The notes under the pieces are model-generated. The model saw only the letters and a list, made by a program, of their open reading frames with translations, did not search any database and was not told the origin of the DNA. A DNA stretch of 35,387 nt from a virus (lineage: Duplodnaviria; Caudoviricetes): positions 1 through 35,387 of the IMG/VR virus record IMGVR_UViG_3300013767_000214. One strand, given 5' to 3'. The translations under genes were made by a program, and so were the position numbers. Below, in pieces: positions 1,787 to 32,647 of the stretch (position 1 is its first letter; each line of letters opens with the position of its first letter).

Positions 1787-1793
1787 GTACACC

Positions 1794-4532: not shown

Positions 4533-4556
4533 AAAAACGTCCGCTCAAGGCGGACG
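4533..4556 (-). terminator. Intrinsic terminator between C3 and F4
   Basis: Minus strand CGTCCGC-cttga-GCGGACG-TTTTT. Confidence 0.65.
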
Positions 4557-4617
4557 CTGGGTCTGATCGACAACACTGCAGTGATCCTTCAAATGCGATT
4601 CGATACCCCGGAATCGC

Positions 4618-5100
4618 TTACGGCCAGGAGAGCATCCCTGCCAGCCAATGCGGCGCCTCGGGACGGGCGGTTGCTTCGGGGAAATGACTTGAGGCCGGCC
4701 ACTCGCGCAGCGCCTGGCGGTGTTCCAACAATTCCAGGTACTGCTGCGCCGTGAGCGTCGTGCCCCGACCCAGGTCTTGCTCATCGCGATGCCTTGCAGC
4801 CAGCCATTGGCTGGCTGCAAGGCTGGCACTGCGCCACTGGCGCTCTTGTGTCACGGGATCTTCGCTGGCGGTATTCAACGTATCGGGGGCTGATAAAACT
4901 GCCGGTGTCTCCGGCGCGGGCAAAGGCTCAGCCGTCTGTTCGATGCTCCGCACCTCTGCACCCAATTCAAGGTCAACGCCCTCGGGAACCGGCACCATCG
5001 AGGTCAGAAACTCAGGGGCGAACAACTCGGTAATCGCGTAGCCACCGGTATCGATCAGCTCAGCGACAATCCCTTCCTCCACACGTGCATACATGGCCAT
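4618..5100 (-). CDS. Tail fibre assembly chaperone C3
   Basis: Abuts the F3 stop; C-terminus ERQWR..L...QWL..RHRDE...RQALREWP resembles C4. Confidence 0.8.
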   Translation of the reverse strand: MAMYARVEEGIVAELIDTGGYAITELFAPEFLTSMVPVPEGVDLELGAEVRSIEQTAEPLPAPETPAVLSAPDTLNTASEDPVTQERQWRSASLAASQWLAARHRDEQDLGRGTTLTAQQYLELLEHRQALREWPASSHFPEATARPEAPHWLAGMLSWP

Positions 5101-6021: not shown

Positions 6022-6068
6022 ATCGTTGTCCTCCCGTCCTGTCTGATCGGGTTTCTTGAATGAATATG

Positions 6069-6094
6069 AAAACGCCCACTGAGTCAGTGGGCGT
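6069..6094 (-). terminator. Intrinsic terminator between the F2/C2 cassette and F3
   Basis: Minus strand ACGCCCACTG-act-CAGTGGGCGT-TTT. Confidence 0.6.
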
Positions 6095-6135
6095 CAGGCT
6101 GTGTGCAAGAACCGAGACTCAATACGAATCCGGAG

Positions 6136-6225
6136 ATTGATCCGACCGCTGAACATGGCACTGTTCAACGAAGAAATGAAAACGCCCGTTTGAGGACAGG
6201 CGTTGAGGAGGATTGCCCGGAGTTG
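6136..6225 (-). pseudogene. Degenerate 5' fragment of a GH19 endolysin gene
   Basis: Ungapped match to 1056-1145, 63/90 nt by hand count; reads QLRAILLNACPQTGVFISSLNSAMFSGRIN vs QLLKIMPNARSQAGVFVSALNGAMSNRQIN. Confidence 0.8.
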
Positions 6226-6383
6226 GCAACGGCTCCGGTTTTTTTCTTGAATTCCTTATACCGCTCATCATCCTGGGAAACGACGCCTTGGTTCTCCCAA
6301 ACACTCGCATCCTGCACAGCCGAAAACTCCGCGATAATCGCTTTTCGTTCTTCACTGTCGAATTGAACGTTGATCACATCCAT
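6165..6383 (-). CDS. Small fibre-associated protein C2 (putative chaperone)
   Basis: GGAAG RBS just after F2; VQFD......IIA.F...QD...W.NQG.V..DDERY; last ~20 codons read out of frame through the endolysin remnant. Confidence 0.65.
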   Translation of the reverse strand: MDVINVQFDSEERKAIIAEFSAVQDASVWENQGVVSQDDERYKEFKKKTGAVANSGQSSSTPVLKRAFSFLR

Positions 6384-6395
6384 AACTTCCACCTG

Positions 6396-7364
6396 TCAAT
6401 TAAATGAATAGCCGCTTATGTAAACTTCAAACAGCGCAGTGCCTGCCGTGCTCTGGCAAGTCATATAGACGGTCTGACGGGTGACCACCGGAAGCGAATA
6501 GTTCCCTGCAATACCAGCACCTGGAGCAAGCTGACTATTAATAATCTGCTGCCCTATTCCAGCACCATCGGCATTCAAAACTAGAGTTACACCTGAAAGA
6601 GCGGTAGAGCTATTGGCTATTAAAAGCTCACCACTAATTTCAAACGCGTTCGGCGGAACAATGCCTGAAATTGATAATGGTGAAGCACTCAGGATCGCGA
6701 AACCGCTATAGGCGGAGTGCAGCGGTATATAAACCTTGCGCCCTCGCTGCGCACCGACCTTGAACATCCCTGATTCATTTGTTGGCCAGACACTGATCAA
6801 TGCGGAAGCGTTATATCCGGCGGGCATTCTGGCGCCATCGTAGACGCCAGCAGCGACCGTCGAGGTGCTGTTGACCGCCAGAATGCTACTTTCGCCAGTG
6901 ACTGAGTTGTAGATGGCATAAAGCGCCACAAAACCATTGGTCGGCGCAGCACCGGCATCCATGCCTCCGGCACCGACGGTGGCGAGGTTTACCGTTTTGC
7001 TGAAGTTCGCCAGTCGATAACCCGCCCCGCCCATGGTTGGCTGAACTGTCACTTCATCAGCCTTGAAGGTGCCTGTAAGAGAAGCGACTGGTATTGAAAA
7101 ACTCGCATTCCTTAACAGTCCGGAAATAGTGCCGACCCGTTGCGAGGAAGCATCCACCAACTTCTGGATCGCCTCCAACAGTTGCCTGTTGTTTGACTCC
7201 GAGGCACTCAAACCGGCGGCACCAATGACCCCCAGGATTTCTTCAGTGACCCCATTGCCCCAACTGGCCGGAATCAAAGATCCCGGCGTTCCGGCTATTG
7301 GGTTTTCATCGACAAACTTGCCATTGACCAAGCCTACGCCGGGCGTGCTTTTTGGATAGTCCAT
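6396..7364 (-). CDS. Tail fibre F2 (322 aa)
   Basis: Shared N-terminus (MDYPKSTPG); NLATVGAGGMD.G.AP..GFVALYAIYN...MPAGY.ASALISVW distal domain. Confidence 0.9.
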   Translation of the reverse strand: MDYPKSTPGVGLVNGKFVDENPIAGTPGSLIPASWGNGVTEEILGVIGAAGLSASESNNRQLLEAIQKLVDASSQRVGTISGLLRNASFSIPVASLTGTFKADEVTVQPTMGGAGYRLANFSKTVNLATVGAGGMDAGAAPTNGFVALYAIYNSVTGESSILAVNSTSTVAAGVYDGARMPAGYNASALISVWPTNESGMFKVGAQRGRKVYIPLHSAYSGFAILSASPLSISGIVPPNAFEISGELLIANSSTALSGVTLVLNADGAGIGQQIINSQLAPGAGIAGNYSLPVVTRQTVYMTCQSTAGTALFEVYISGYSFN

Positions 7365-7494
7365 ACTTTTCTCTAAGTGTATTTGATCCGCACCGACCAT
7401 TAATCAAGGTGCAGTAGGCGTAAAAGATCGCCCATCAAGAAAGGGCGTTAGTGTTCTTTACAAGAGGCTCAATCGAACCCGACACGGGCCCTGA

Positions 7495-8010
7495 CTACTG
7501 CACCAAGTCACTGACGACCTTGCCAATCGCCTGAACTGCGTTATCAGCCACTTCCCGAGCCTGTTCGGTCTTGCCCTTGGCGAGCTGCGCCCGGATCTTT
7601 TCCTTGGCCTTCAAGCGCAGGGTGCGCAGGGCCAACACACGGTCATTGAACTCGGCCGACTTATCGAGAATATCGTTGGCGGCCTCTTCGGCGGTCCGGC
7701 CCTTGACGGCCCAGGCGCCTACGGACAGCGGGACGGCTTTTGGGGGATACCCCGCCTCCTTGAAGGCCCGGGCGTCGGCGGCAGCGTTCGCATATTCCAT
7801 GGCCCGCAGCGGATCCCCGGTAATGGCCTGGCGCGCGCTGTCTGCCGCGGCGTCCACTTGAGCGCAAAGGCGCTCTGCGTTCGGGGCTTCGACCTCGACC
7901 GCTTTTGCCGGGTCGAGCACCCATTGAGCGCCATCCCAGTCATGGGCTGGCGAGGGCTGTACAGGACGCAGCTCATCGTCGAATTGATGCATTTCCTGAA
8001 TGACTTTCAT
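7495..8010 (-). CDS. Fibre-associated chaperone C1
   Basis: ATGA overlap with the F1 stop; PSPAHDWDG.QW and VDAAADSAR...GDPLRAMEY. Confidence 0.75.
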   Translation of the reverse strand: MKVIQEMHQFDDELRPVQPSPAHDWDGAQWVLDPAKAVEVEAPNAERLCAQVDAAADSARQAITGDPLRAMEYANAAADARAFKEAGYPPKAVPLSVGAWAVKGRTAEEAANDILDKSAEFNDRVLALRTLRLKAKEKIRAQLAKGKTEQAREVADNAVQAIGKVVSDLVQ

Positions 8011-9158
8011 CGGATCAGCTCCCAGGACAGATTGACGTTTACAGCGCTCGAGAAATTGACGGCAATACCGGTCGAGTAATCGGTTTGCGAAAACGTTTTA
8101 ATCCCCATGCTCAGAAGCAGCTCATCACTGGTGGCATTCGCGACGTTATAGTTATGTTCGGCTTGATAGCTCTGCCAGAGCGAACGCAGTTCTGAATGAT
8201 CGAAACTTGCGGTAAGGGCGGTGACGGTTGTGTCTCCGACTTCGTTAGTCGTAAAAATCCTGACCGACTCGCCGGCAGTGCTCCAACCATCCCATCCATA
8301 GGAAACGTTTTGCAGAGGTGTCAAAAATGAGTAATTCCCGCCACGCCATCCCCCTGGCGCAAAACCCACACTGGTAAGGGCTGTGGGAGAAGGCGTCGGA
8401 TTACCCACGACAAGACGTGCTGCCCGGGCATGCGGATCCAGCGGAAGATAAACCACACCACTTCCGTTGACCGTCTGAGTCCAGGTCAACCGCGCGCGGT
8501 TGTAGATCAGCCGGACGACTGGCAGCGTTCCCGGTGCCGCAGTCACGACCCAGGCAAGACACATATCCAGCGGCGTGGACTGAAAACCGCCACCGGCGGC
8601 GCCATTCACGGTGCCCTTCAGTGAATCCGGAGCGCCGTCGTAGATCGCTCCGCGCTGCATGTAAAACGTCAGCGCCCCGCCAATCACCTGCGCCCTCAAG
8701 AAGTACCCCGAGTTAGGCAGCAGGTCCGCGCTGCTCCATGCCGTGGTCAGGAACGTACGCGAGCGGCCCAACTGCCCGGCCAGCACTTCCTGACCGAGAC
8801 TGAGATACACCCCCGCGGGAATCGACACTTTGCCGCCACTGGTCGAGACGGCGGTCGGGGTCACCGGCAAACGCGCATCGGCCGTCGCCACCGTCGGCAA
8901 GGGCAATGCCGCCAGAGGCAATGCCAGATCCTGGTTCCAGCCCTTGGCGGTGACCGTCTGAATCGCCTGCAGCAACTGGTCGTTCTTCGCCTCGTCCGGG
9001 GTCAGCTCACCCGCCTTGATGACGTTCACGATCTCCTGCGTGACGCCATTGCCCCAATCCGCCGGAATCAACGATCCCGGCGTGCCGGTCAACGGGTTCT
9101 CATCGACGAACTTGCCGTTGACCAACCCCGCACTGGGCACACTCTTTGGATAATCCAT
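8007..9158 (-). CDS. Tail fibre F1 (383 aa), first fibre after the baseplate genes
   Basis: Directly follows the gp48-like gene; shared N-terminus. Confidence 0.9.
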   Translation of the reverse strand: MDYPKSVPSAGLVNGKFVDENPLTGTPGSLIPADWGNGVTQEIVNVIKAGELTPDEAKNDQLLQAIQTVTAKGWNQDLALPLAALPLPTVATADARLPVTPTAVSTSGGKVSIPAGVYLSLGQEVLAGQLGRSRTFLTTAWSSADLLPNSGYFLRAQVIGGALTFYMQRGAIYDGAPDSLKGTVNGAAGGGFQSTPLDMCLAWVVTAAPGTLPVVRLIYNRARLTWTQTVNGSGVVYLPLDPHARAARLVVGNPTPSPTALTSVGFAPGGWRGGNYSFLTPLQNVSYGWDGWSTAGESVRIFTTNEVGDTTVTALTASFDHSELRSLWQSYQAEHNYNVANATSDELLLSMGIKTFSQTDYSTGIAVNFSSAVNVNLSWELIR

Positions 9159-9168
9159 TGCCTAGCCT

Positions 9169-9768
9169 CTAGTCGTAATTGATGTGCACCCGCGTGTGGG
9201 CCGGAGCGCTGCGATGGATCAGGCATTCCAGGGCGGAGCCCGGGTTCATGCCGAAGCGTTCGCCCCAGTAGCTGGCGCCGTAACGGCGACCCAGCAACAG
9301 GCGGCCACCGGTGTTGAGGGTCCACATGAACTGCGCCTGCCAGGTGCCGAAATGCGCCGCACCGAAACGCGCGCGGCCCATGCGGGGCGCTTCGAGTTCG
9401 GTGATGGTGGCGTTCGGGTAGCCCTGGGTGCGGGCGATTTCCACGTAATAGCTCAGAGCCTGGCTGCCAACGGCGAGCAGGCGCCTGCGCACGGCGAGGC
9501 GGCGGTCGTCGAACAGCGGGGTCAGGCCCAGGCACGGGTCGGGCAGGTTCATCACCCGCTCCCAGTCCGGCACCAGCTCGCTGACGCCGGCCGGGTCCAT
9601 TTCGTTGAGCAGGTCGGCGGCGCGGGCGTCGAGGCGGGCCAGTTCCTGGGAGAGGTCCTCCAGTACCTGTTCCAGTTCCGGCACCCGCTCCGGATCCCAG
9701 GCCGGACCGCTGGGCAGCAGGCTGCGCAGCTGGGCCTGGTATTGCGCGGCGGTTCTTATTCCAGCCAT
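9169..9768 (-). CDS. Mu gp48-like baseplate wedge protein (YmfQ/DUF2313)
   Basis: LLPSGPAW, EL.PDWERV..LPD.C, LECLIHR.APAHT; position after the gp47-like gene. Confidence 0.9.
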   Translation of the reverse strand: MAGIRTAAQYQAQLRSLLPSGPAWDPERVPELEQVLEDLSQELARLDARAADLLNEMDPAGVSELVPDWERVMNLPDPCLGLTPLFDDRRLAVRRRLLAVGSQALSYYVEIARTQGYPNATITELEAPRMGRARFGAAHFGTWQAQFMWTLNTGGRLLLGRRYGASYWGERFGMNPGSALECLIHRSAPAHTRVHINYD

Positions 9769-10796
9769 ACGCAACCTCCGAACGTCAGCAGCTGATTGCT
9801 CGCGGCCGGTACGTCAGCGGTGGGCGCCATCAGTTTGTGATCGTTCTCGCCGGTGGCGCTGCTGATGGCTTCGGCGATATGGGTCAGCAACAGGGTTTCA
9901 CCGAGACCGGCTTCGCGGTTGTGCAGGTCACGCAACTGGGCTTCGACGGCGGCGCGCACGGCGCTGGTGTCGGGGGTCAGGCGCAGGCGGTAAGTCACCG
10001 GCTGTTGCACCGGCGCCAGCACATGCAGCTCGGCCGTCACCGGGCGCAGCGGCTCGATGTGGGCCTGGACCTCGGCCAGTTGCGCGGCGTCCGGCACCGG
10101 TTGCGGATCGTCGTCACGCATGACGAACAACCCCACCGTGCCCGGGCCCAGGTAGCTGCCGCGGCACCAGGCGCGGGTGATCCCCGGACACTCCAGGGCC
10201 CAGGTTTCGTAGTCTTGCGCCGAACCGCCGTGAGGAATGATGCGATAGGAGCGGATCACCCGCGAGCGCAGCGATTCCAGGCTTTCCCGGGCGATACCGC
10301 CGGTCAGCCCCGGCGCCAGCACGGTAAAGGTACCGGCGATGCCCTGGATCGGCTGCACTGGAATCAGGGTCAGGCCGGCATCGGCATTGCCCAGGGAGCC
10401 GGCGTCCAGTGCCGCGATGGTGGTGCTGTTCAGGCCGTTGCTGGTGGTGCGGGCGGCGGTCACCTTGTAACTGCGACCGTCACTCGATTGCAGCAGGGTG
10501 TCGACGTCCAGTACCGCACCCGCGCAGGCCATGAAGCTGACGCTGCCGTGGGCGGACTGGGCCGCTTTACGCGGCTGGTTGAGGCGTAGCGCGGCGATGC
10601 GTTCCAGGGTGGACTCATCGGCCTTGTCCGGCAGAATCTGATCGGCGATCCAGTCCAGATAGCCATAAAGGCCAAAGGCTGTGCCGCTCAGGGTTCGGGC
10701 CAGGACTTGCGCATCGGACTGGCGCAGCGAATCGCTGGCCAGGTCGCTTTGGGTGCGCTTGATCAGCACCGGCAGCGAAGGCGTTTCAAACGGCAT
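9756..10796 (-). CDS. Mu gp47/baseplate J-like protein
   Basis: QILPDKADE, PHGGS..DYETWALE.PGITRAW. Confidence 0.92.
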   Translation of the reverse strand: MPFETPSLPVLIKRTQSDLASDSLRQSDAQVLARTLSGTAFGLYGYLDWIADQILPDKADESTLERIAALRLNQPRKAAQSAHGSVSFMACAGAVLDVDTLLQSSDGRSYKVTAARTTSNGLNSTTIAALDAGSLGNADAGLTLIPVQPIQGIAGTFTVLAPGLTGGIARESLESLRSRVIRSYRIIPHGGSAQDYETWALECPGITRAWCRGSYLGPGTVGLFVMRDDDPQPVPDAAQLAEVQAHIEPLRPVTAELHVLAPVQQPVTYRLRLTPDTSAVRAAVEAQLRDLHNREAGLGETLLLTHIAEAISSATGENDHKLMAPTADVPAASNQLLTFGGCVWLE

Positions 10797-11184
10797 AGGT
10801 CACCTGCCAACTGTGTTCGGGGTTAATGTCCAGGCGCTCACCGTCGGCCAGGATCAGCACCGTGCGCAGGTTCAGGCGCTGGGCGTCGAGGCGTTCGCTG
10901 AGGACTTCGATGGCGCTGCAATGACCGTCGTCGATCAGCCATTGCAAGGCTTCGCGGGCATAGAATTCGGCGTCGAGCTGGGTCTGCCGGGTCAGCTTGA
11001 CCCGGCGCAGCAGCCACAGCCGCGAGCCGATGCGGTCGTCGGCAACGGTGGGAAAACTATCGCCCCACCAACCGAAGCGGTCGTCGTCATCGAGCACGTC
11101 ATCGTCGGCCGCGCGGCGCCAGGTGAAGAGACTGATGAGCACCGAACGGGTCAGTGCGGCCTTGAGGTCATGACTGATAAACAT
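10786..11184 (-). CDS. Mu gp46-like baseplate protein
   Basis: ISLFTWRRA..DD, GWWGD, IGSRLWLLRR.K, YAREALQWLIDDG. Confidence 0.92.
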   Translation of the reverse strand: MFISHDLKAALTRSVLISLFTWRRAADDDVLDDDDRFGWWGDSFPTVADDRIGSRLWLLRRVKLTRQTQLDAEFYAREALQWLIDDGHCSAIEVLSERLDAQRLNLRTVLILADGERLDINPEHSWQVTYAV

Positions 11185-11693
11185 CACTGGCCTCCTGCGG
11201 GGGCGCCGGTCTGGCCACTGCCTGGCTGGACGCCCGGGTGGACGTGTTTGATCTGGCTGATACCGCCCGCGACCTGGTCGCCCTGGGAAACGATCTTGCC
11301 GGTCTGGTTCAGGGTCGGCGTATCGATGTTCACGGCGGTACTGGCGCGGATGTTCAGGGTGCTGGTTTCGATGTCGATGATCCGCCCGCGCTTGAAGTGG
11401 ACCTTGTCCCCTTCGTCGGTGTAGATCGCCACTTCGCCGGGCGCCAGGGCCTTGAGGCGATAGCGGCGGTCAGCGACCACCAGCACCACGGCATGGGAGC
11501 GATCGCCGCCCAGGAAAGTCGCGATCCCTTCGGCACCGGCCAGCGGATTGCTGGTGAAGCCATAGGGTTCGAAATGCTCCATGTCGTCGTTCACTTCACC
11601 GGCGGTCAGGCGCATTTGCAGCGATTGCAGTTTGTTGGCCGAGTTGGCGAGCACGACGGTGCCGCGCGCCAACAGGCGTGTCAGTAGGCTCAT
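11184..11693 (-). CDS. Mu gp45-like baseplate spike
   Basis: EHFEPYGFTS.P..GAE, GEVAIY.DEG, C-terminal HVH metal-binding motif. Confidence 0.92.
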   Translation of the reverse strand: MSLLTRLLARGTVVLANSANKLQSLQMRLTAGEVNDDMEHFEPYGFTSNPLAGAEGIATFLGGDRSHAVVLVVADRRYRLKALAPGEVAIYTDEGDKVHFKRGRIIDIETSTLNIRASTAVNIDTPTLNQTGKIVSQGDQVAGGISQIKHVHPGVQPGSGQTGAPAGGQ

Positions 11694-11716
11694 TGGATTT
11701 TCCTTGGATATAACAC

Positions 11717-11851
11717 CCGTAGCAGCTGCCGAAGGCTGCGTTCGGGCGCGTAGCGGCCGTAAAACCTGAATCGACGATTAACCTGAAGTACCGCAGCGCC
11801 TGATTTCACGACTGCTACGCAGCCGAACGCAGCCTTCGGCAGCTGCTACGG
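11717..11851. repeat. REP doublet/REPIN-like inverted repeat
   Basis: Perfect 29-bp inverted arms CCGTAGCAGCTGCCGAAGGCTGCGTTCGG (11717-11745, 11823-11851), intergenic. Confidence 0.8.
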
Positions 11852-11863
11852 ATTAATGTGAAC

Positions 11864-12904
11864 TCAGGTTTTGGGCGGTACCGGGTTGGCATCGAACGTA
11901 TGGGGCGGCGCCACTTGCAGGGTGGTGATGGAGCCCTGTTCGGACAGTGAGTAAGTGACCTTGGAGATCAACATGTCCTGATCGAATCCCAGCACCTTGT
12001 CGATCACCCGTACCAGCGTGTTATGCCGCCACAGGTCGCCGTTGGACTGACGCCAGCCTTGCACGCGGTAGGTGGTGGTCAGCGCTTTGCCCGTGCGGGT
12101 GGCGCTTTCCCAGTCGGCGCGTTGCTGAGCCAGTTCGAAGGTGAGTTGAGCGCTTTCGCTGATGACCGTGACCCGTTTGCGTGGGGCGCCGATATCAGTG
12201 GCCGTGCCCGAGACTTCGCTGACCGCACTGCCGCTTTTCTCGTTGTTGCCCTTGTGCTGGCCGATCACCCGGTATTCGGAGAACACCTGGCTGAAGTCCA
12301 TCGGCGCATTGGCCGACAGGATGTTCTTGCCCAGCTCCAGCGCATCGCTGGCCCGTCCGCCGCTGCCAGGCTTGGCCAGCAACACCCGGCCTTCGGCATC
12401 GTCGGTGGAGAACACCCGGTACAGGGTCAACAAACGGTCGATGGACTGGAACACCGTTTCGCCCGGCACGATGCTGTGCTTGCTCAGCTTCGTGGTTTGC
12501 GGGATTTCGCTGACCACGCCCACGCCATAGGACGACGCGAGGGACTGAACAATGCTCAACAGGCTTTGTTCCTGCCATTGGCTCGGGCGGTTGATCGCCG
12601 CGCAATCCACCAGGTCCTGGGTCAGCGAACTGCCCTCGATGTTCAGGCTGATCTGCCTGCCGTCGTAACTGACCGGCGCCTTGTACACATGCCCGGTGAG
12701 CACCAGGTCGGAACCGATCCGTACCTGGCAGCGCGAGCCGGGCTTGATCGGCTTCACCAGGGTCTGCCCCGGCCACTGCCAGGTGATGTTGAGGGTGAAG
12801 GTGCGGAACTGACGCTCCAGGTCCGCACTGATTTCGACGCTTTTCCAGCCGCCATAATCCAGACCGTCAACGGTCAGGGTGACGGTGTTTTCCGGTTCGG
12901 TCAT
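11864..12904 (-). CDS. Mu gp44/gpP-like baseplate hub protein
   Basis: YGGWKSVEI, T.DLVDC.A, PGETVF, L.LGKNIL, VQGWRQ..GDLW..N. Confidence 0.92.
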   Translation of the reverse strand: MTEPENTVTLTVDGLDYGGWKSVEISADLERQFRTFTLNITWQWPGQTLVKPIKPGSRCQVRIGSDLVLTGHVYKAPVSYDGRQISLNIEGSSLTQDLVDCAAINRPSQWQEQSLLSIVQSLASSYGVGVVSEIPQTTKLSKHSIVPGETVFQSIDRLLTLYRVFSTDDAEGRVLLAKPGSGGRASDALELGKNILSANAPMDFSQVFSEYRVIGQHKGNNEKSGSAVSEVSGTATDIGAPRKRVTVISESAQLTFELAQQRADWESATRTGKALTTTYRVQGWRQSNGDLWRHNTLVRVIDKVLGFDQDMLISKVTYSLSEQGSITTLQVAPPHTFDANPVPPKT

Positions 12905-12907
12905 GGC

Positions 12908-14146
12908 TTACACCTCGGCGACTTTCAGGTCGGTCTGAGGCAGGAAGCCAGGATGGATCGCACTGTTGCGCTGAATCACTTCACCGACCCGCGTGGCGTC
13001 GCCAAAACGCTGATAGGCAACCACCAGCGCCGGCAGGTTCTGCTTGGGCTCCAGGGTGATCAACCGCACCCCCGACGAGGACACCGCCGTGAGATGGCCG
13101 AACAGCTGCTGACGCAAGGCGTTGAGCGCCTGATAGTGCAAGGCATCGGCCTTGAGGGCGGCTTGCCACATCGCGTCATTGAGCACTTTGCGCAGGGTCA
13201 GCACATCATCGAGCACCGGTACGTCCTGGCGCTGCACCGGTTGCACCGCCTGCTGCGTCACGGACGGCGTGGAGGTCAACTTGACCACCGGCGTGGCCAC
13301 CGGCATCTGCGCCACTTTGTAGCCGATCTTCACCAGCAAGGCGTCCTGTACCAGGTTGGCCATGGCCTGGGCCGCGGCCACCGTATCCTTGCCGGTGGTG
13401 AGTTTCGGCGTGTCGATTTTCTTCACCGCCTCGACCTGCTGCGAAGCATTGGCGAGCACGCCGCGATAGCCCTCGCGGGCGAAGTCCTTGAGCTCCTTGA
13501 TGTCGCCGAGCAAACCCTTGAACTCCGCGCTCACCTCCTTGGGCAGTTCCTTGACGGCCCTGACCAGCAGACTGAGCTCCTTGTAGGTCTCGATCAGTTC
13601 CTTGAACTCGTGCTCGATGACCTCATAGACATCCTTGAGGCAATCGCGCAGTTCCTTGACCGCGATCCGTGCGGCCTTGATCAGGCTCATCGCATCCTCG
13701 AAACGCCGCACCGCCGAGCCCAGCAGACTGTCGGCCGACACCAGCAATTGCTCGCGGGAATTGACCACCGGGGTGGGAAACTGCAGCGGCTGGTCAGGGT
13801 GAAACTTCAGGGCGAAGGTCACCAACCCGCCGTCCTGGCGGGTGTGGGTCATTTCGCATTCGCCGACCTTGACCTGCATCCGCCCCAGCCACGGGTGAAC
13901 CAGTTCACCCGTGCCCTGCTCCAGGGCCTCGAGCAGTTTGTCGCGCTGCTCCAGGCAATCCTCGCCAACGATGAACGCCGTCAGATCGTGGATTCTGGCC
14001 TGCCGGCCAAGCCCCTCGAAAAATGCCTGGTCACGCTGGGGATACTCATGCAACTGACCTTTCTGGCCGACCGGGGTTTTCGCCTGATCGACCCAGAACC
14101 CGACGCCGCGAAACGACGCCGGCAACAAACGATCACGCCAGCTCAT
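12908..14146 (-). CDS. Mu gpN-like DNA circulation/tail protein
   Basis: WRDRLLPASFRGV.F, HEYPQRD, G.LVHPWLG, N..IHPGFLP. Confidence 0.92.
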   Translation of the reverse strand: MSWRDRLLPASFRGVGFWVDQAKTPVGQKGQLHEYPQRDQAFFEGLGRQARIHDLTAFIVGEDCLEQRDKLLEALEQGTGELVHPWLGRMQVKVGECEMTHTRQDGGLVTFALKFHPDQPLQFPTPVVNSREQLLVSADSLLGSAVRRFEDAMSLIKAARIAVKELRDCLKDVYEVIEHEFKELIETYKELSLLVRAVKELPKEVSAEFKGLLGDIKELKDFAREGYRGVLANASQQVEAVKKIDTPKLTTGKDTVAAAQAMANLVQDALLVKIGYKVAQMPVATPVVKLTSTPSVTQQAVQPVQRQDVPVLDDVLTLRKVLNDAMWQAALKADALHYQALNALRQQLFGHLTAVSSSGVRLITLEPKQNLPALVVAYQRFGDATRVGEVIQRNSAIHPGFLPQTDLKVAEV

Positions 14147-16136
14147 TGGAACCTCCTAGGGAAAGTGAGCGATAGCCGATACGCGGCGTCAGGGACAGGC
14201 CCGGCTGGTTGATCTGTGGCTGGTCGGTGCGCATGCCCGCCGGCGCATTTTCGAAGCGCACCGTCAGGCCGCCTTCGAGTTGCGTGCGGTTGTTGGCGGC
14301 GCTCTGCTGCACCAGGGCGTTGGAGCCTTGGGGCAGGTTGCGGGACAACGGCGCAGCGTCGGCGCCAAAGAATGCCGGCGCCAGTTCGCCTTTGCCTTCG
14401 GCATTGGTTTTCTGCTGCGCCTGGGTCAGCCCTTCGACCTGGCCGGTGATCTTGGCGATGAAGCCGCCAAAACTGCCGCCGAGCATTTCCTTGATCGGCG
14501 CCATGATGCCTTTGAGCTTCTCCCACAAGCCGGAGAACCACTCGGTGATCGGCTCCCAATGGGCGGCGATCATCTCCATCGGCGACCAGTCGAACAGGCT
14601 CTTGAACAACTCCTTGACCGGCGCCGTGACCTGGAGCAACGAGTCCCACAAGCCGGTGAAGAATTCCCGCACCGGCACCCAGGCCGCATTGATCAGCGGC
14701 ATTGGCGACCAATCGAACAGCGCCCTGAAGAACTCGCCTATCGGCTGCGCCAGCGCCTCAAGGCTTTGCCACAACTGCGAGAAATAGCTGCTCAGCGGAT
14801 CCCAGACAGCACTGATCAGGGGCATCGGCGACCAGTCGAACAACGCCCTGAAGAACCCGGCTATCGGCTGCGCCATCGCCTCTAGGCTTTGCCACAACTG
14901 CGAGAAGTAATTGCTCAGCGGATCCCAGACCCTCCTGATCAGCGGCATCGGCGACCAGTCGAACAGGCTCTTGAAAAAGTCCACAACCGGCGCGGTCAAC
15001 AGCACCAGACGGTCCCAAAGCGCCGAGAAGAAGCCCAGCAACGGCTGCCAGTACCTGATCACCATGCCCAGCGGCGTCCAGTCAAAAATCTTCTTGAGAA
15101 ACCCGGTCACCGGCACCGAAAGAGCCCGAAGCAAATCCCAGATTGCGGAGAACAGACCGGTCAACGGCTGCCAATTGTCGATGACAATCCCCAAAGGACT
15201 CCAGGAAAACAGGGTTTTGAAGAAGTCGACAAGCGGAGCCGCAGCCACTGTGATGCTCTGCCAGAGCGACTGGAAAAACTCACTGGTTGCGCCCCAGGCA
15301 TCTTCAAGCAGAGCCATGGGAGACCAGTCAAAAAACGCTTTGATATTGTCCAGGGCTTGCGCCGTCGCATCGCTTGCCGCCCCCCAGAGCTGTGACATGT
15401 ATCCGGTGATTGCGCCCCAGCTGCCGCGCAGTGCCTCAAGAGGGCTCCAGTTCAACAGACCTCTGAATACGGCAAAGGCCGATTCGGCAGCGCCCTTTAC
15501 CGCCCCCCACACCCGACTGAAGAACGCCGAAATCGGCTCCCAGTTGGCCACAATCAGGCCGGCTGCCACGGCGATGCCCATGGCAATCAGCATGATGGGA
15601 TTGGTCTTGAGCACCATGCTCATCAGGTCGAAGACCTGGGTTGCGCCCGTCACAGCCGTTTGCATGGCCGAAAAGGCAATGGCCCCGGCCGCCAGGCCTT
15701 CAACCAGCTTCGGGTTGTCGTTAAGCAGGCTGCCAACGTTAGTCAGCAAGGGCTCGAGGCCAACCACCAACGCCCCCACCGCCGGTACCAATGCGGCGTC
15801 GATGGCCCCCGAGACCTTGGCCATCGAAGCGCTGAACACATTCATGTTTTGCACGGCACTGCCAGGCACGGCAGGCAAGTCGACTTTTTTCGCCGACTCA
15901 CCGACCTCGTCCAGCTTTCCCTGGAAGGCCGCGGACGCCTTGATACCGTCCACGAACGGCGTGATGACACTACCGCCCTTGAACAGCCCGCTGATGTCCA
16001 GCTTGCCGATACCGACCTGTTCCAGGTTCTTTTTGAAACCGTCGATTTTCACTCGAAGGCCGGCGAGCTTGGGAGACAGCTCATCGATGCCCGTCAGCAA
16101 GAACGCCGTTTTCTCAGTTTTTTCTGTCTCTGCCAT
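14133..16136 (-). CDS. Tape measure protein, module 2 (~667 aa)
   Basis: Follows the tail chaperone; TNPI.LI..GIAVAAGLI..NW hydrophobic segment; Trp-periodic repeats. Confidence 0.9.
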   Translation of the reverse strand: MAETEKTEKTAFLLTGIDELSPKLAGLRVKIDGFKKNLEQVGIGKLDISGLFKGGSVITPFVDGIKASAAFQGKLDEVGESAKKVDLPAVPGSAVQNMNVFSASMAKVSGAIDAALVPAVGALVVGLEPLLTNVGSLLNDNPKLVEGLAAGAIAFSAMQTAVTGATQVFDLMSMVLKTNPIMLIAMGIAVAAGLIVANWEPISAFFSRVWGAVKGAAESAFAVFRGLLNWSPLEALRGSWGAITGYMSQLWGAASDATAQALDNIKAFFDWSPMALLEDAWGATSEFFQSLWQSITVAAAPLVDFFKTLFSWSPLGIVIDNWQPLTGLFSAIWDLLRALSVPVTGFLKKIFDWTPLGMVIRYWQPLLGFFSALWDRLVLLTAPVVDFFKSLFDWSPMPLIRRVWDPLSNYFSQLWQSLEAMAQPIAGFFRALFDWSPMPLISAVWDPLSSYFSQLWQSLEALAQPIGEFFRALFDWSPMPLINAAWVPVREFFTGLWDSLLQVTAPVKELFKSLFDWSPMEMIAAHWEPITEWFSGLWEKLKGIMAPIKEMLGGSFGGFIAKITGQVEGLTQAQQKTNAEGKGELAPAFFGADAAPLSRNLPQGSNALVQQSAANNRTQLEGGLTVRFENAPAGMRTDQPQINQPGLSLTPRIGYRSLSLGGSNELA
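14520..15560 (-). repeat. Tandem 123-bp (41-aa) repeats within tape measure 2
   Basis: W(S/T)P codons recur at 14581, 14704, 14827, 14950, 15073, 15196, 15319, 15442. Confidence 0.85.
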
Positions 16137-16306
16137 CACTGCACCTGCTGCATCGCATTGATCCGTTGCGCGTGCTCCAGGGACTCCCGGAGCACATCCA
16201 GTGGCCTGGCCATCATCTGTTCGGGGTCAACCTTCCAGAACCAGGCCAGGTCATAGGCGACAGCGATCAGGTCGGTGATGGCCCCGATGCCGCACTCATG
16301 AAAAAA
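16136..16306 (-). CDS. -1 frameshift extension of the module 2 tail chaperone (G-T type)
   Basis: Slippery T TTT TTC at 16300-16306; -1 frame FHECGIGAITDLIAVAYDLAWFWKVDPE...QQVQ* ends overlapping the tape measure ATG. Confidence 0.8.
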   Translation of the reverse strand, partial: FFHECGIGAITDLIAVAYDLAWFWKVDPEQMMARPLDVLRESLEHAQRINAMQQVQ

Positions 16307-16563
16307 CTCGCGACAGCCCAGCTCAGACCGTTGAGGTCGGCCAGATCCAGCTGGTTGACCGACGACGGCGGAATGCCGGCGCAGACCGCGATGTATTTGG
16401 CCGCGACATCCATGTCCAGGCTGACTTCTTCGCTCTTGTCGATTCGATACGGCAGCGCCTTGATCGCCCGCACTTCCTGCACCGTCGGACGGCGCAGGGT
16501 CAGTTCGGTGAGCGGCTCGCCGTGGGCCTCGATGGCCACTTGCAGCTTCACGGCCTGAGTCAT
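16267..16563 (-). CDS. Tail assembly chaperone (Mu gp41-like)
   Basis: Between tube and tape measure; ELTLRRPT, GIPPSSV.QLDL.D. Confidence 0.88.
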   Translation of the reverse strand: MTQAVKLQVAIEAHGEPLTELTLRRPTVQEVRAIKALPYRIDKSEEVSLDMDVAAKYIAVCAGIPPSSVNQLDLADLNGLSWAVASFFMSAASGPSPT

Positions 16564-16907
16564 TGCCAGGTCCCCTTCACACCGTTGAAGACCAGCGAGA
16601 TAGAAGCGTCGTCGCCCTTGGAAACCGGCTCATCCACCAGATAGGCACCGGCCAGCACGAAGACCTTGCCGTTGTTGAATTCGCAGGTAACGGTCATGTC
16701 GGTACCGGCAACCAGCTGCTTGAGCGGGAAGTCCGGGGTGTGCAGCGCCGTGACCTTGAAGGTCGGGGTGATCTCGGTTTCCTTGTAGAAACCCGGTACG
16801 ACGGTTTCACGCTTGGTGGACATCAGCGGGGCTTCGCAGCCGCCGTTGATGGTCAGTTGAGCACCGTCGACTTTGACGTAGCAGGTACCCGCAATCAGTT
16901 GACCCAT
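16560..16907 (-). CDS. Tail tube protein (Mu gpM-like)
   Basis: IAGTCYVKVDG.QL, GFYKET...P; follows the sheath; GGGAG RBS. Confidence 0.9.
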   Translation of the reverse strand: MGQLIAGTCYVKVDGAQLTINGGCEAPLMSTKRETVVPGFYKETEITPTFKVTALHTPDFPLKQLVAGTDMTVTCEFNNGKVFVLAGAYLVDEPVSKGDDASISLVFNGVKGTWQ

Positions 16908-16925
16908 GGTGTATCTCCCTTCAAT

Positions 16926-16948
16926 AAAAAGCCCACGCAAGGTGGGCT
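16926..16948 (-). terminator. Terminator-like hairpin between sheath and tube
   Basis: Minus strand AGCCCAC-cttgc-GTGGGC-TTTTT. Confidence 0.6.
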
Positions 16949-16973
16949 GAACTCACACAGTGAAACGCGCCCC

Positions 16974-18470
16974 TCAGGCCGCGTTGTCGTACTGCAGACG
17001 GAATTGGTTGAGCAGTGCGAAGACGCGCAGACCGTTGATGTAATCCGGCGGGAACAGCACGTTGATGCGGCTCGGATCCTGAGTGTCGCGCTCGACGATC
17101 AGGTGCTCGGCGAACAGCTCGGCGTTTTCCACGTGGCCTTCCAGTTCGAGCTTGGCGTACTGGGCGATCAGCTCACCGCGAATGGTGCTCGGGGTGACGA
17201 TCGGCTGACCGGCGCCGAAGCGGGTACCGTCGGCGGCCAGCTTGTGGCGCCCGTACTTGCTGGTGATCACGCTTTGCAGGCGACGCACGATGAACGCCGA
17301 CTGGTGCATGGTTTCGCTGTCCAGGTAGGAGTTGTCCGCCTGGCCGTAAGCGTTCTTCTGGTAGGTGGTGATCGAGCGCTGAATGCGCACGTAGCCGCCT
17401 TCGTAGTACGCCGTGGCGATACCGTAGTTGAGCAGCGACTGACGCTCGGTCAGGGTGAAGCGCTCGCTGGCCGGGGCCGGATCGACGCCTGGCAGGCTGC
17501 CGCTTTGCGTCGGACGGCTGGCGTCGGCGGAGATGAACACCGAAGTACGGGCAGCCAGGGCGGCGGCCTGAACCCAGAACGGTTGTGGCACACCCGGCTC
17601 CAGCGCCTGGATGGTCACGTGCTGGTCGTTGCGGGTTTGACCGGCAGCCACCAGGGTACCGACCGTACCGCGCTTGGCGGTGTAGACGTGACCGAACAGT
17701 TGCTTGGCCCAGGACCAACGACCGACGCTGTCATCCATGACGGCTTGCCAGGTGTTGAGACTGGCCACATCGGTCCACGGCATGCAGATGAACTCGAATG
17801 GTTCATCGCCCAGCGCAGCGACCGCTGCGACCTGGTCAGGCACACCGGCACCGCCGGTCATTTTACCGATGGCGGTGGTCAGGCCGGCCGGGGTGCTTTC
17901 GCCGTTGCTCTTGCCCAGACGATTGAACTGCAGGCTGATGTCGTTGCCGCTGTCGCCGGTCCATTTGGCATTCAGGGTGACAACGCCTTCGACCGCGGTC
18001 GCGGTGACGGGCAGATCGGCTGCCGCGTTGACTTTCTGGGCCAGGGTGGTGGCCGCCTGAGCGGCGGTCGCGCCGTTGACGATGGCCGCCTGCACACGGA
18101 CACCGCCCACGTACAGGTTGAGCACGCCGCTTTCAGTGGCGGTGCCGGTCAGGGTCAGGACGCCCTTGGCAATGCTGCCTTCGGTGCTGTGCAGCGGCAG
18201 GCACCAGATTTCGCCGACCGGGTCGGTCTTGCGGAAGGTTTCGTACATGGAGGCCAGCATCGAGCCCTGACCGCCAATGCTCTTGGCCAGTGCCACGCTG
18301 GATACCAGCACCAGTTTGCCGACATCGGCGCCGGCCACGTTGTCGTTGACCTGAGCGACGATCAGGCGGCGCATGGCCGACGAAGCGCTATTGGCTGCCG
18401 AGTTGTCCATCTCGGCGTAGAACAGCGGAACACGAATGTCCGCGGGAATGTTGCTGAATCCGATCGCCAT
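16974..18470 (-). CDS. Contractile tail sheath (Mu gpL-like)
   Basis: IP.DIRVPLFYAEMDNS.AN, ITTYQKNAYG..DNSYLDSET, VTPS.IRGEL; 498 aa. Confidence 0.95.
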   Translation of the reverse strand: MAIGFSNIPADIRVPLFYAEMDNSAANSASSAMRRLIVAQVNDNVAGADVGKLVLVSSVALAKSIGGQGSMLASMYETFRKTDPVGEIWCLPLHSTEGSIAKGVLTLTGTATESGVLNLYVGGVRVQAAIVNGATAAQAATTLAQKVNAAADLPVTATAVEGVVTLNAKWTGDSGNDISLQFNRLGKSNGESTPAGLTTAIGKMTGGAGVPDQVAAVAALGDEPFEFICMPWTDVASLNTWQAVMDDSVGRWSWAKQLFGHVYTAKRGTVGTLVAAGQTRNDQHVTIQALEPGVPQPFWVQAAALAARTSVFISADASRPTQSGSLPGVDPAPASERFTLTERQSLLNYGIATAYYEGGYVRIQRSITTYQKNAYGQADNSYLDSETMHQSAFIVRRLQSVITSKYGRHKLAADGTRFGAGQPIVTPSTIRGELIAQYAKLELEGHVENAELFAEHLIVERDTQDPSRINVLFPPDYINGLRVFALLNQFRLQYDNAA

Positions 18471-18652
18471 TAGTTGGCTCCCTCTGGTTGTGCCGCTTGC
18501 ACGGCGTTGATTGTGATATCGCCATCGGCCAGACGTCGGCGCCACCAGGCGCTGTCCGACACTTCACGCCCCTCGCGGGGCAACAGGTCGCCCGCTTCCG
18601 GGTCCGGCACGACACGGCCTTCGGCCGGCAGTACGGTGATGCGTTCGCTCAT
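18470..18652 (-). CDS. DUF2635 / Mu gp38-like small tail protein
   Basis: P.EGR.VPDP..GDLLP.EG..V....WW.RRL.DGD. Confidence 0.88.
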   Translation of the reverse strand: MSERITVLPAEGRVVPDPEAGDLLPREGREVSDSAWWRRRLADGDITINAVQAAQPEGAN

Positions 18653-19233
18653 TGCTTTACGTCTCCTGAAAAAATCATCTCCAGGCGCCCGTCGGGCCCT
18701 GGACGTTTCAAATTGGGGTCCGCCGGGTCGATGGCATCGACCCTTACCGTGACCCCGGTAAAGGACGGCAAGCCGTCCAGTTCACGCTCACGCCAGGTCT
18801 CCGCCGTCTGGCTGGCCCGGTTGCGGCCCAGCTGGAACTCGGCGAAAAAGCGCAGGCGGTAAAGCACGCGAGCGGTGTTGATCGACACCAGCTCACCACC
18901 GTCGTATTCGATCGGGTCGTAGTCCTTGTCCGGCTTGAACCCCACCAGGGCGCGCCATAGTTCGGCGCGCAGGTCGTGCAACAGATCCAGCGCTTTTGTG
19001 CCGTCCGTGGCGTCAAGCACCAGGATGATTTCGAAGCGGTCGCGGATCGGTTGGCGGGTGAGGTTCTGCGCGCTGCTGTCACCGGCCTGATCGGCCAGTG
19101 GGGTGACGTGGGCCGAAGGTGTCGGCAGATCGGCCTTGCCCTGCAGCAAGGCCAGATCGACACCCACCGCAATGTGGTTGGCAAGGCTTGGGCATTGCGC
19201 ACGCAACTGCGTGAGGATCGGGGTGATCTTCAT
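18649..19233 (-). CDS. Tail terminator/completion protein (Mu gp37-like), first gene of module 2
   Basis: LRAELWRALVG..P...Y.PIEYDGG, DPADPN...PGPDGR.E; position before DUF2635 and sheath. Confidence 0.8.
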   Translation of the reverse strand: MKITPILTQLRAQCPSLANHIAVGVDLALLQGKADLPTPSAHVTPLADQAGDSSAQNLTRQPIRDRFEIILVLDATDGTKALDLLHDLRAELWRALVGFKPDKDYDPIEYDGGELVSINTARVLYRLRFFAEFQLGRNRASQTAETWRERELDGLPSFTGVTVRVDAIDPADPNLKRPGPDGRLEMIFSGDVKQ

Positions 19234-19314
19234 GGTGGTGTTCCAGAATGAAATAGGGTCCGCAGAACCCTGCAAGACCCTGTGGGGTCGGTGTCGAAGC
19301 GAGAAAGGGGTGAA

Positions 19315-31005: not shown

Positions 31006-31356
31006 TTACTGCTGATCCGGGTTGGAGCTACGTGGAGTCGGGTCATCTAACCCGATCCGCTTGGCCGCCCAGCGCTCGTAAAGTCCGATGGCCACATCGG
31101 CGCCCGCCATCGCGGTGAGACAGCCGAAAGCGCCGGCGGTCCAGATCGATACGCCAGCGGCGTACAACAGCATGATGGTCGAGACCCCGCAGATCACGCA
31201 GGCCCCGGAGCGCAGGGCCAGACGCCGCGCCAGCAACCAGCCGCGGGCGCCCTCCTTGTCGGCGCGCCACATCTCGCCGGACACGCCGCCCACCAGGGCG
31301 AGGACGATGACAAGCCAGATAGGCATGTCCAGCAACGCTTGCTGCTCGTTTGTCAT
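31006..31356 (-). CDS. Holin
   Basis: 116 aa with several hydrophobic segments; strong AGGAGGAG RBS; first gene after the repressor, as in R-pyocin loci. Confidence 0.9.
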   Translation of the reverse strand: MTNEQQALLDMPIWLVIVLALVGGVSGEMWRADKEGARGWLLARRLALRSGACVICGVSTIMLLYAAGVSIWTAGAFGCLTAMAGADVAIGLYERWAAKRIGLDDPTPRSSNPDQQ

Positions 31357-31467
31357 GTCACTCCTCCTGAGTGGAAAAAGGCCAGTGAACTGGCCGGGTA
31401 AGAAATCGGTTTGGCTTGTGCATCAATCGTGCATATCTCTGGATGACCCACGGGAGGTAGGCATTCC

Positions 31468-31492
31468 AAAAAGCCCGGTCGCCCGGGCTTTT
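31468..31492 (-). terminator. Intrinsic terminator in the leader upstream of the holin
   Basis: AAAAGCCCGG-gcga-CCGGGC-TTTTT, extendable by GCATT/AATGC. Confidence 0.75.
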
Positions 31493-31673
31493 CAGTAATG
31501 CTGTCCTTGATCTTTCGGCGCTACTGGCGCGGTACGGATCCATTTAAATTGTTCCTCCGACCGCGACCCTGTCCGCCGGATAACTGCTTCTGGTGCTTTA
31601 CGCTGCACACCCGGGTCAGTTGCCAACCCTCTGAACCGTTGAGGCCGGTTCATCGCTGCCTTTGCTGTACCAC

Positions 31674-31682
31674 TAAAGAGCG
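31674..31682 (-). promoter_or_regulatory. boxA-like Nus-factor site
   Basis: CGCTCTTTA about 30 nt downstream of the predicted TSS; matches the lambdoid/rrn boxA core. Confidence 0.45.
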
Positions 31683-31716
31683 GTGTTGCTCGCCGTTGTT
31701 GAGCGGCTTGAGACGA

Positions 31717-31745
31717 ATAATATGCATCAATGCATATGCAGTCAA
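31717..31745 (-). promoter_or_regulatory. Sigma70 promoter of the tailocin operon
   Basis: TTGACT-17 nt-TATTAT (-35 at 31740-31745, -10 at 31717-31722). Confidence 0.75.
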
Positions 31746-31789
31746 TGCAAAAATGCATTTATTTATGCACGACAAATGCACGGACGCAT
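31722..31789. promoter_or_regulatory. Three ATGC-N6-GCAT palindromes (putative repressor operators)
   Basis: 31722-31735, 31745-31758, 31776-31789, overlapping or flanking the promoter. Confidence 0.65.
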
Positions 31790-31831
31790 GAGATCCGCAT
31801 AGATAAAGGCTTTGAGGGTTTTCAGCAGGCG

Positions 31832-31859
31832 AAAAAAAACCCGCTCAATGGCGGGTTTT
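31832..31859 (-). terminator. Terminator of the repressor gene
   Basis: AAAACCCGC-cattga-GCGGG-T8 just after the stop codon. Confidence 0.85.
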
Positions 31860-31876: not shown

Positions 31877-32611
31877 TCAGCGGGCGTACATGCCCCACCA
31901 GAAGACGTGACCGAGAATGGTGATCTGCTCTTCCTGGATTTCCTGGAAGCTGTAGTCTTCGTCCGGATGCTCGTCGCGGTTGAAGCTGCGCAGACGGATA
32001 CCGGTAGGCAGGCGGTAGAGTTGTTTCACCCGCAGCTGGCCGTTGTGGTTGATCGCATACAGGTCGCCATCGACGATGTCGCCAATTGCGCATTTACCGG
32101 CATTGACCCCCACCGTGGCGCCGTCGCGCAGCACCGGCAGCATGCTGTTGCCGCGCACGGTGACGCACTTGGCCTGATCGAACTGCACGCCATTGTGACG
32201 CAGGCTGCGCTTGCCAAAGCGCAGGCTTGAGCGCTCGCTCTCTTCGATGACGAATCTTCCTGATCCAGCAGCCAATTCAACCTCACGAAGAAAAGGGACC
32301 GACACCTCGTCGTCATCGACAGGTGTATCGTCGTCCCACAGGCTTATGTCCTTGAGTTCCGAGTGAACCTCGTCGCGGGCAGACGTCTTGGCCAGCGCGA
32401 CATCCGCGCGCCCGCGCAATTGATCGGTGCTCACCTGGAAATACTCGGCGATACGCGAGATGTGCTTATCCGAAGGATCGACGATCTTGCCGCTGAGAAT
32501 CCGCGAGAGAGTGGATTGAGGCACGCCGGTTCGACGGTGAAGCTCCGTAGGGGAGATCCCGTTGCGATCCAGCAGCTCTCTTAAGACGGTAGAAACATTG
32601 CGCTTTTGCAT
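31877..32611 (-). CDS. prtR: PrtR-like CI/LexA-family repressor (XRE HTH + S24 peptidase)
   Basis: HTH (ELHRRTGVPQSTLSRI), Ala-Gly cleavage site ELAAGSG, catalytic GNSM and RVKQL. Confidence 0.92.
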   Translation of the reverse strand: MQKRNVSTVLRELLDRNGISPTELHRRTGVPQSTLSRILSGKIVDPSDKHISRIAEYFQVSTDQLRGRADVALAKTSARDEVHSELKDISLWDDDTPVDDDEVSVPFLREVELAAGSGRFVIEESERSSLRFGKRSLRHNGVQFDQAKCVTVRGNSMLPVLRDGATVGVNAGKCAIGDIVDGDLYAINHNGQLRVKQLYRLPTGIRLRSFNRDEHPDEDYSFQEIQEEQITILGHVFWWGMYAR

Positions 32612-32647
32612 AACGCGCATATTGCTCGTTCTCTTTGCGGATGACAA

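What the first reader, a model, noticed from the sequence alone, without database searches (positions are those of the whole stretch)
31357..31716. Structured ~350-nt leader with boxA and a terminator but no antiterminator gene: candidate cis-acting RNA antitermination element
Seen on the minus strand between the promoter (TSS ~31710) and the holin: boxA-like CGCTCTTTA (31674-31682); a 7-bp hairpin TGAACCG/CGGTTCA (31632-31652); a nested stem AACTG..GGTGT-loop-GCACC..CAGTT (31582-31621) whose GACCC can alternatively pair with upstream GGGTT or downstream GGGTC; a GCGC-cagta-GCGC hairpin; then a strong terminator (31468-31492). No convincing ORF lies here. Known: P. aeruginosa pyocins need PrtN, lambdoid phages use N/Q with boxA, and HK022 uses protein-free put RNA. 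No PrtN/N/Q-like gene is in the window. Inference: this leader may convert RNA polymerase to a termination-resistant state (put-like or Nus-dependent) to transcribe ~31 kb, or it may release a ~240-nt sRNA. A trans factor encoded elsewhere is not excluded.
Basis: partly seen in the sequence, partly recalled or inferred. Interest (0 to 1): 0.75.

Follow-up and report, generated by a model that had tools for sequence, protein, structure and literature searches.

The report
Double-pseudoknot leader RNA of tailocins
In front of this Pseudomonas tailocin (phage-tail weapon) operon sits a conserved 106-base RNA with two covariation-supported pseudoknots, also found at the head of temperate-phage early operons and plasmid conjugation operons, which likely lets RNA polymerase read past stop signals without a dedicated phage protein.

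Summary
The motifs are real and the leader is strongly conserved. Its core (31661-31556, minus strand) folds as two tandem pseudoknots plus two stems: 98.6% of cells pair and 22 of 33 pairs show two-sided changes. The RNA is in 76 of 80 related prtR loci; the 4 without it lack tail genes. It also sits at the lambda nutL/HK022 putL position of temperate phages (cI upstream, same strand, 31 of 45, never opposite) and ahead of VirB- and Dot/Tra-type conjugation operons. No N-like gene follows it; 4 of 5 complete host chromosomes lack PrtN and Q families. boxA matches the host rRNA boxA (74 of 76 exact) but is optional elsewhere. No Rfam family or paper found; not put by sequence. Best reading, untested: a cis-acting, host-only processive antiterminator (0.55). 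Against: no PR copy, few terminators in two other operons, and a hint of a stable processed fragment. Earlier agents of this scan found the same RNA on other genomes.

The parts
31877..32617 (-). prtR/ptbA, cI-like repressor (HTH + peptidase S24), upstream on the same strand like cI before PL
   Evidence: Pfam; same arrangement in phages
31832..31859 (-). Terminator-like hairpin and U run ending prtR
   Evidence: sequence
31715..31790 (.). ATGCAT-rich repeats over the promoter, inferred PrtR operators
   Evidence: near matches cluster here; single others at 32661 and 8001
31717..31745 (-). Sigma-70-type promoter (PL equivalent), start predicted near 31710
   Evidence: conserved, 55-181 nt before the core
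31674..31682 (-). boxA, identical to the first 9 nt of the Pseudomonas 16S-leader boxA
31632..31661 (-). Domain 1: H-type pseudoknot, AGGC (31661-58) with GCCT (31645-42) across stem P1 (31652-46/31638-32); conserved linker AGCGA
31582..31629 (-). Domain 2: stem P2 (31629-25/31617-13) whose loop AAC(T) (31621-18) pairs with (A)GTT (31585-82), enclosing stem P3 (31611-07/31596-92) and its conserved loop
31556..31580 (-). Stem P4 with two single-G bulges
   Evidence: 7 of 8 pairs with two-sided change
31518..31530 (-). P5 hairpin with CAGYA-type loop
   Evidence: loose pattern in 74 of 76 relatives
31462..31500 (-). P6: long bulged-A hairpin; in tailocin loci its top is a terminator-like stem with 5 U (31488-31468)
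   Evidence: (70 of 71 with at least 5 U)
31375..31395 (-). Second terminator-like hairpin before the holin ribosome site
31006..31356 (-). Holin, first gene of the operon
   Evidence: Pfam PF16085
19315..30826 (-). P2-like contractile tail module
1178..19275 (-). Mu-like contractile tail module and fibre/chaperone genes
16930..16948 (-). Internal terminator-like site between Mu-like sheath and tube, also at this place in two relatives; others at 26055-26005, 6204-6071, 4558-4536, 1124-1101
82..1163 (-). Lysin (GH19) and Rz, end of the operon

Best explanation
The leader of this mutS-linked tailocin operon carries a conserved double-pseudoknot RNA, shared with the cI-PL leader of temperate Pseudomonas phages, that likely folds as it is transcribed, likely binds the host RNA polymerase and would make it resist termination over the 31-kb operon with no phage protein. 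Shown: structure by covariation, position, distribution, boxA identity, terminator-like sites, absence of known antiterminator families. Inferred steps: DNA damage cleaves PrtR (by analogy with P. aeruginosa, PMC10598620); the single promoter fires; boxA loads host Nus factors as an optional aid against Rho; the RNA modifies the elongation complex as HK022 put does; the modified polymerase passes P6, the second leader terminator and the internal terminators, reaching lysin and Rz. In tailocin loci P6 carries a U run that phage and plasmid copies lack, and would stop polymerases that were not modified.
For: Structure: 98.6% of 1100 cells paired, 22 of 33 pairs with two-sided change, 0 of 500 shuffles reached that; slid controls 32-50% paired. 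Both pseudoknots held in 26 of 27 parsed sequence types from a metagenome search whose pattern named neither partner; the failure was a chance match. Position: after PL in PseuP_224, Medea1, Orimi01, F116, LKA5; cI-like gene upstream on the same strand in 31 of 45 phage-type loci, opposite in 0; this is where put replaces nut in HK022 (PMC9378689). Portability: in 8 of 27 plasmid hits viewed, 5 lie just before virB1, 1 before a Dot/Tra-type operon, 2 in IS-broken versions of the latter; no NusG/RfaH paralogue in 3 plasmids and 2 phages, control rang in 10 of 14. No partner protein: downstream genes differ between loci, no antiterminator family in 38 plus 8 ORFs, N36 in 0 of 7 phage records; five complete chromosomes with RNA and tail genes have PrtN 0 of 5, PF03589 0 of 5, Q 1 of 5. 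Need: 18 sense versus 4 antisense strong terminators in those five operons, 5 versus 3 in the window. Loss: 4 of 9 tail-less loci versus 0 of 71 others (Fisher 8e-5, not corrected for kinship); the holin between leader and tail is kept, so the leader loss is a separate deletion.
Against: No read-through or polymerase binding was measured. One copy per phage immunity region, none on the PR side, whereas put and nut occur on both. No sense-strand terminator hit in 6 kb of the PseuP_224 PL operon and only weak ones in 7 kb of a virB operon. 5 of 9 tail-less loci keep the RNA. boxA is absent from 16 of 43 phage-type and 12 of 158 tailocin-type loci, and can also promote termination (PMC12360218). 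Domain 1 is remodelled in F116 and LKA5. The N36 search had no true positive control and N proteins diverge fast; PrtN-family genes occur elsewhere in 4 of 5 relatives. A constitutive cis antiterminator directly before a terminator is hard to explain except as a filter. An RNA run holds a short deep contig over the core ending in adapter at 31665, which hints at a stable fragment.
Confidence: 0.55

Rival explanations
1. The RNA is a nut-like loading site for a dedicated protein antiterminator or activator, encoded elsewhere and not recognised by current families.
For: boxA directly upstream in 76 of 76 GTDB loci, as in nut; invariant unpaired motifs AGCGA and GCAGC look like a protein site; a terminator after the RNA makes sense if the factor is limiting; PrtN-family genes elsewhere in 4 of 5 relatives.
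Against: No conserved or Arg-rich first gene in the 48 phage-type loci listed; PrtN, Q and N families missing from most complete hosts and phages tested; one RNA serves phage, tailocin and two conjugation systems with no shared gene seen.
Confidence: 0.17
2. The leader yields a stable, processed 80-240-nt RNA that works in trans (decoy for a host protein or defence system); it heads the operon only because that promoter is strong and early.
For: Compact double-pseudoknot fold; in run X9 contigs over 31582-31665 have depth 378-550 against 27-105 for three flanking copies, one ending in adapter at 31665 (contig depth is a poor measure); terminator downstream in tailocin loci; CsrA-like genes in some of the same PL operons.
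Against: In every context viewed it lies on the sense strand ahead of an operon, never as a stand-alone gene; phage and plasmid copies have no U run at P6; RNA contigs run from the leader through P6 into the holin.
Confidence: 0.15
3. The RNA acts after transcription: it shields the long mRNA from 5'-end-dependent decay, with P6 as an RNase III-type processing or translation element for the first gene.
For: P6 is a long bulged helix just before the first ribosome site in phage and plasmid copies and recurs within PseuP_224.
Against: A 5' shield does not explain boxA selection or passage of internal terminators; a cut in P6 would part the core from the mRNA (inference).
Confidence: 0.08
4. The RNA is a ligand-sensing riboswitch or attenuator that controls only the P6 terminator.
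For: Pseudoknots with conserved unpaired nucleotides resemble aptamers; a terminator follows in tailocin loci.
Against: No overlap with the terminator; core-to-P6 spacing varies (about 113-276 nt from the core start); downstream genes share no metabolic theme; no Rfam hit.
Confidence: 0.05

Closest known systems
HK022 putL/putR antiterminator RNAs (PMC9378689: parts 1-2 of 9 and passages read)
   Same: Just behind PL in place of nut, no N gene; the 5' domain has crossing helices (A3-G7 with C15-U19; C10-G14 with C30-G34 read from the sequence), which I read as the same H-type topology as domain 1.
   Different: No sequence likeness (781 of 1000 shuffles score as well; no model hit); 106 versus about 70 nt; second pseudoknot and two extra stems; no PR copy; often paired with boxA; Pseudomonadaceae only in the genomes searched.
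Lambda nutL (boxA-boxB) with N (passages of PMC8632103, PMC12360218)
   Same: cI - PL - boxA - structured RNA - long hairpin - first gene order (lambda order recalled).
   Different: No boxB hairpin and no N-like gene found; boxA optional.
rRNA-leader boxA antitermination (NusA/B/E/G, SuhB, S4)
   Same: 9 of 9 nt identical to the Pseudomonas 16S-leader boxA.
   Different: The tail is GT.. rather than ACAA; the rrn complex is described as acting on pausing and Rho (PMC8632103), whereas this operon has intrinsic terminators.
Bacillus EAR/epsC RNA (passages of PMC2864571, PMC8632103)
   Same: Structured RNA in a long operon with antitermination activity.
   Different: No Rfam hit; other phylum and context.
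PtbA (PrtR)-only tailocin clusters at mutS-cinA (passages of PMC4684702, PMC10598620)
   Same: Same locus type: ptbA on the same strand as tail genes, no prtN.
   Different: The passages seen describe no leader RNA; the review says the regulation is unclear.

Membership tests
HK022-type put | Lies directly behind an early lambdoid promoter with no N gene | tested here: met
HK022-type put | Sequence and two-stem fold alignable to putL | tested here: not met
HK022-type put | Copies at both PL and PR | tested here: not met
   one copy per immunity region in 5 whole records; a post-cro position is seen only on plasmids
HK022-type put | 5' crossing-helix domain | tested here: inconclusive
   topology alike, lengths and sequence differ
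HK022-type put | Binds the beta-prime zinc-binding domain and antiterminates without other factors | not testable with these tools
   needs in vitro transcription or structure
lambda nut/N | boxA | tested here: met
   74 of 76 exact; absent in 28 of 201 loci
lambda nut/N | boxB hairpin and cognate Arg-rich N protein | tested here: not met
   family search is weak for N
rrn-type boxA site | Matches host rRNA boxA and is conserved amid variable flanks | tested here: met
rrn-type boxA site | NusB/NusE/SuhB dependence | not testable with these tools
   needs mutants
Any Rfam 15 family (EAR, C4, riboswitches, ribozymes, Rsm sRNAs) | Reaches gathering score | tested here: not met
PtbA-type mutS-cinA R-tailocin locus | mutS, same-strand prtR, holin, tail modules, lysin, no prtN, no capsid family seen | tested here: met
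   cinA lies beyond the record end

The most novel reading that the evidence does not exclude
A second, structurally distinct class of protein-free antiterminator RNA in phages: a tandem-pseudoknot module that grips Pseudomonas RNA polymerase, optionally teamed with the rRNA boxA, and has been reused as a portable cassette to drive tailocins and two unrelated conjugation machines, standing in for N, PrtN and RfaH.
Probability: 0.4. Interest if true: 0.88.

Novelty: new variant of a known kind. Interest (0 to 1): 0.72.

Why it matters
How the PrtN-less tailocins of plant-associated Pseudomonas are switched on is stated as open (PMC10598620). This gives a concrete answer: a lambdoid cI-PL-type module plus a folded RNA, with exact base pairs to break and repair. 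RNA-only antiterminators are few (put, EAR, RARE in the passages read), and a double-pseudoknot one shared by phages, bacteriocins and plasmids would be a new fold for the job and a possible part for expressing long operons in Pseudomonas. Even if the function differs, it is a well-supported RNA family missing from Rfam.

Tried and rejected
61-codon leader ORF as a leader peptide: start in 27 of 76, lengths scattered, no PHROG family; in Q8r1-96 it is annotated as an extension of Com. Known RNA family: no gathering hit; the best E-value hits are terminator look-alikes. put homology: rejected. PR-side copy: none (one hit at E 0.19 ignored). Wider spread: 10 of 151 family genomes, none of 150 further class-wide genomes, no E. 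coli match; these are samples. Dropped rows: 4 of 21 loci and 7 of 67 were chance matches; 27 of 67 loci were not parsed (imperfect P1 or chance); the hairpin pattern mis-hit some rows and was recounted. Sequencing runs: only contigs with 11-21% word share, all from relatives; they cannot show level or strand, so they are hints only. Fremin 2023 (PMC10690425): motif strings absent from the readable tables, which by their legend describe candidates rather than give alignments; the alignment archive was too large to read, so the motif may be among those candidates. Word search of earlier findings gave nothing. No protein fold or complex job was run: no candidate partner protein was found.

Full report
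Setting. The window is a whole 35-kb record classed as a virus, but it is a chromosomal tailocin locus: mutS, then on the minus strand a cI-like repressor, a 520-nt gap, holin, a P2-like and a Mu-like tail module, lysin and Rz. Passages of PMC4684702 describe this locus type (ptbA on the tail strand, no prtN), and passages of PMC10598620 say its regulation is unclear.

Observation. The promoter at 31745-31717 is the best sigma-70 match in the window; three weaker 9-of-12 matches lie at 21566, 6361 and 188, fewer than shuffles give. ATGCAT repeats cluster at the promoter. Rfam gives nothing.

Conservation. The best 80 of 501 PrtR relatives were fetched by protein, not by the motif, so they lean to close kin. 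The core is in 76 of 80. Exact boxA is in 74 of 76, although the distance from promoter to core ranges from 55 to 181 nt; its 8-mers are the most shared in the variable 5' leader. The same 9 nt begin CGCTCTTTAACAA, found six times in each of two chromosomes; the three copies checked lie before 16S rRNA. The four loci without the core have cinA right after the holin. Nine of 80 loci have cinA within the 4-kb flank; 4 of these lost the RNA against 0 of 71 others. Tail genes were verified in five of the 71.

Structure. A first alignment of 35 sequences supported P1-P4 and the loop pairing of P2 (14 of 33 pairs with two-sided change). A covariance model found diverged prophage copies in which AGGC/GCCT becomes GGGT/ACCC and AAC/GTT becomes CTC/GAG. 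A viral search naming only the CTC loop and P3 gave 17 true copies of 21, each with GAG at the predicted place. On 34 sequences, 98.6% of cells pair and 22 of 33 pairs change on both sides; the alignment was fitted to the nested stems, not to the pseudoknots. A metagenome pattern that named neither partner gave 60 full-length copies of 67; both pseudoknots held in 26 of 27 parsed types, with a third state CAC/GTG. Cells count sequences, not events, but at least three pair states occur in domain 2.

Where else it sits. In PseuP_224 and Medea1 it lies just behind the leftward promoter, downstream of cI; in Orimi01 it lies behind the promoter divergent from the cro-like gene, with no cI annotated. 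A diverged copy is at the same place in F116 and LKA5 (50 bits; domain 2 intact, domain 1 remodelled). In 45 phage-type loci a cI-like gene is upstream on the same strand in 31, opposite in none, undetected in 14. This is the place where HK022 carries put instead of nut (PMC9378689). It is also on 27 Pseudomonas plasmid records; of 8 viewed, 5 precede virB1, 1 precedes a Dot/Tra-type operon and 2 are IS-broken versions of that. Three follow a cI/cro pair, a PR-like place. It was found in 10 of 151 family genomes and in none of 150 further class-wide genomes.

Is there a partner protein? Genes after the RNA differ from phage to phage and none has an N-like arginine-rich start; 38 plus 8 ORFs hit no antiterminator family; N36 is absent from 7 records (no true positive control). 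NusG/RfaH paralogues are absent from 3 plasmids and 2 phages. PrtN-family genes occur elsewhere in 4 of 5 relatives, but in 0 of 5 complete chromosomes that carry RNA and tail genes; Q families occur in 1 of 5 and 0 of 5.

Is read-through needed? In tailocins, apparently: the leader hairpin has at least 5 U in 70 of 71 relatives, and strict terminators number 18 sense against 4 antisense in five relatives, some at matching places. Elsewhere it is less clear: F116 has one strong site after its fourth PL gene, but PseuP_224 has no sense hit in 6 kb and a virB operon only weak ones. There the target would be Rho polarity or pausing (inference).

Expression. Only contigs of relatives were available. 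In two RNA studies the contig carrying the holin ends at 31676-31694, near the predicted start, while two DNA-like runs continue into prtR; three such contigs run about 5 kb past the leader. One run has short deep contigs over the core ending in adapter at 31665. Both are weak hints; the second favours a stable fragment.

Comparison. It sits and probably works like put but is not a member: putL was located in the HK022 record, scores no better than shuffles and is not hit by either model. That put's 5' domain is an H-type pseudoknot is my reading of the pairs in PMC9378689; the paper does not use the word. It has nut's boxA but no boxB or N. Ten literature searches and passages of PMC5737381, PMC2864571, PMC7815802, PMC11109978, PMC8632103 and PMC12360218 showed no description of this RNA. 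Subscription papers are not covered, and the Fremin 2023 alignments could not be read. Earlier agents of this scan reported the same RNA on other genomes, mostly for a subgroup with an added GGA array; my reading was recorded before that look-up, and their notes are not independent support.

Verdict. A real, new RNA family with a well-supported double-pseudoknot fold. Cis-acting antitermination is the best reading (0.55) but rests on position, distribution and absences, not on a measured activity. Interest 0.72.

Noticed in passing
window 1124-1101 and 6204-6181 (minus): A strong terminator-like hairpin lies inside the start of the lysin coding sequence; a look-alike at 6204 suggests a remnant lysin start in ORF 6165-6392.
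   Followed up: no
window 31500-31462; L082 6179 and 6557; L207 7154: The bulged-A P6 hairpin precedes the first ribosome site in phage and plasmid copies without a U run and recurs within a PL operon; possibly an RNase III-type site.
   Followed up: partly
L221, L235, L335 (F116 gene 24): CsrA/Rsm-like genes lie among the first genes behind the RNA in several phages.
   Followed up: no
L027, L030, L033 and similar loci, 5' of boxA: One group of tailocin loci has about 110 extra nt of GGA-containing repeats between promoter and boxA; this window lacks them.
   Followed up: no
L208 4669-6002, L265, L266, L207, L264: virB operons of these plasmids sit behind a phage-type cI/cro pair or a same-strand cI-like gene, suggesting damage-inducible control borrowed from a prophage.
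   Followed up: no
L254-L261: PrtN-family genes occur as close pairs far from the tailocin locus in four relatives.
   Followed up: no
L083 5841-6324 (Orimi01): No cI gene is annotated between the cro-like gene and the leader, yet the RNA is kept.
   Followed up: no
window, whole record: The record is classed as a virus but is a mutS-linked double tailocin with no capsid family among the ORFs scanned.
   Followed up: yes
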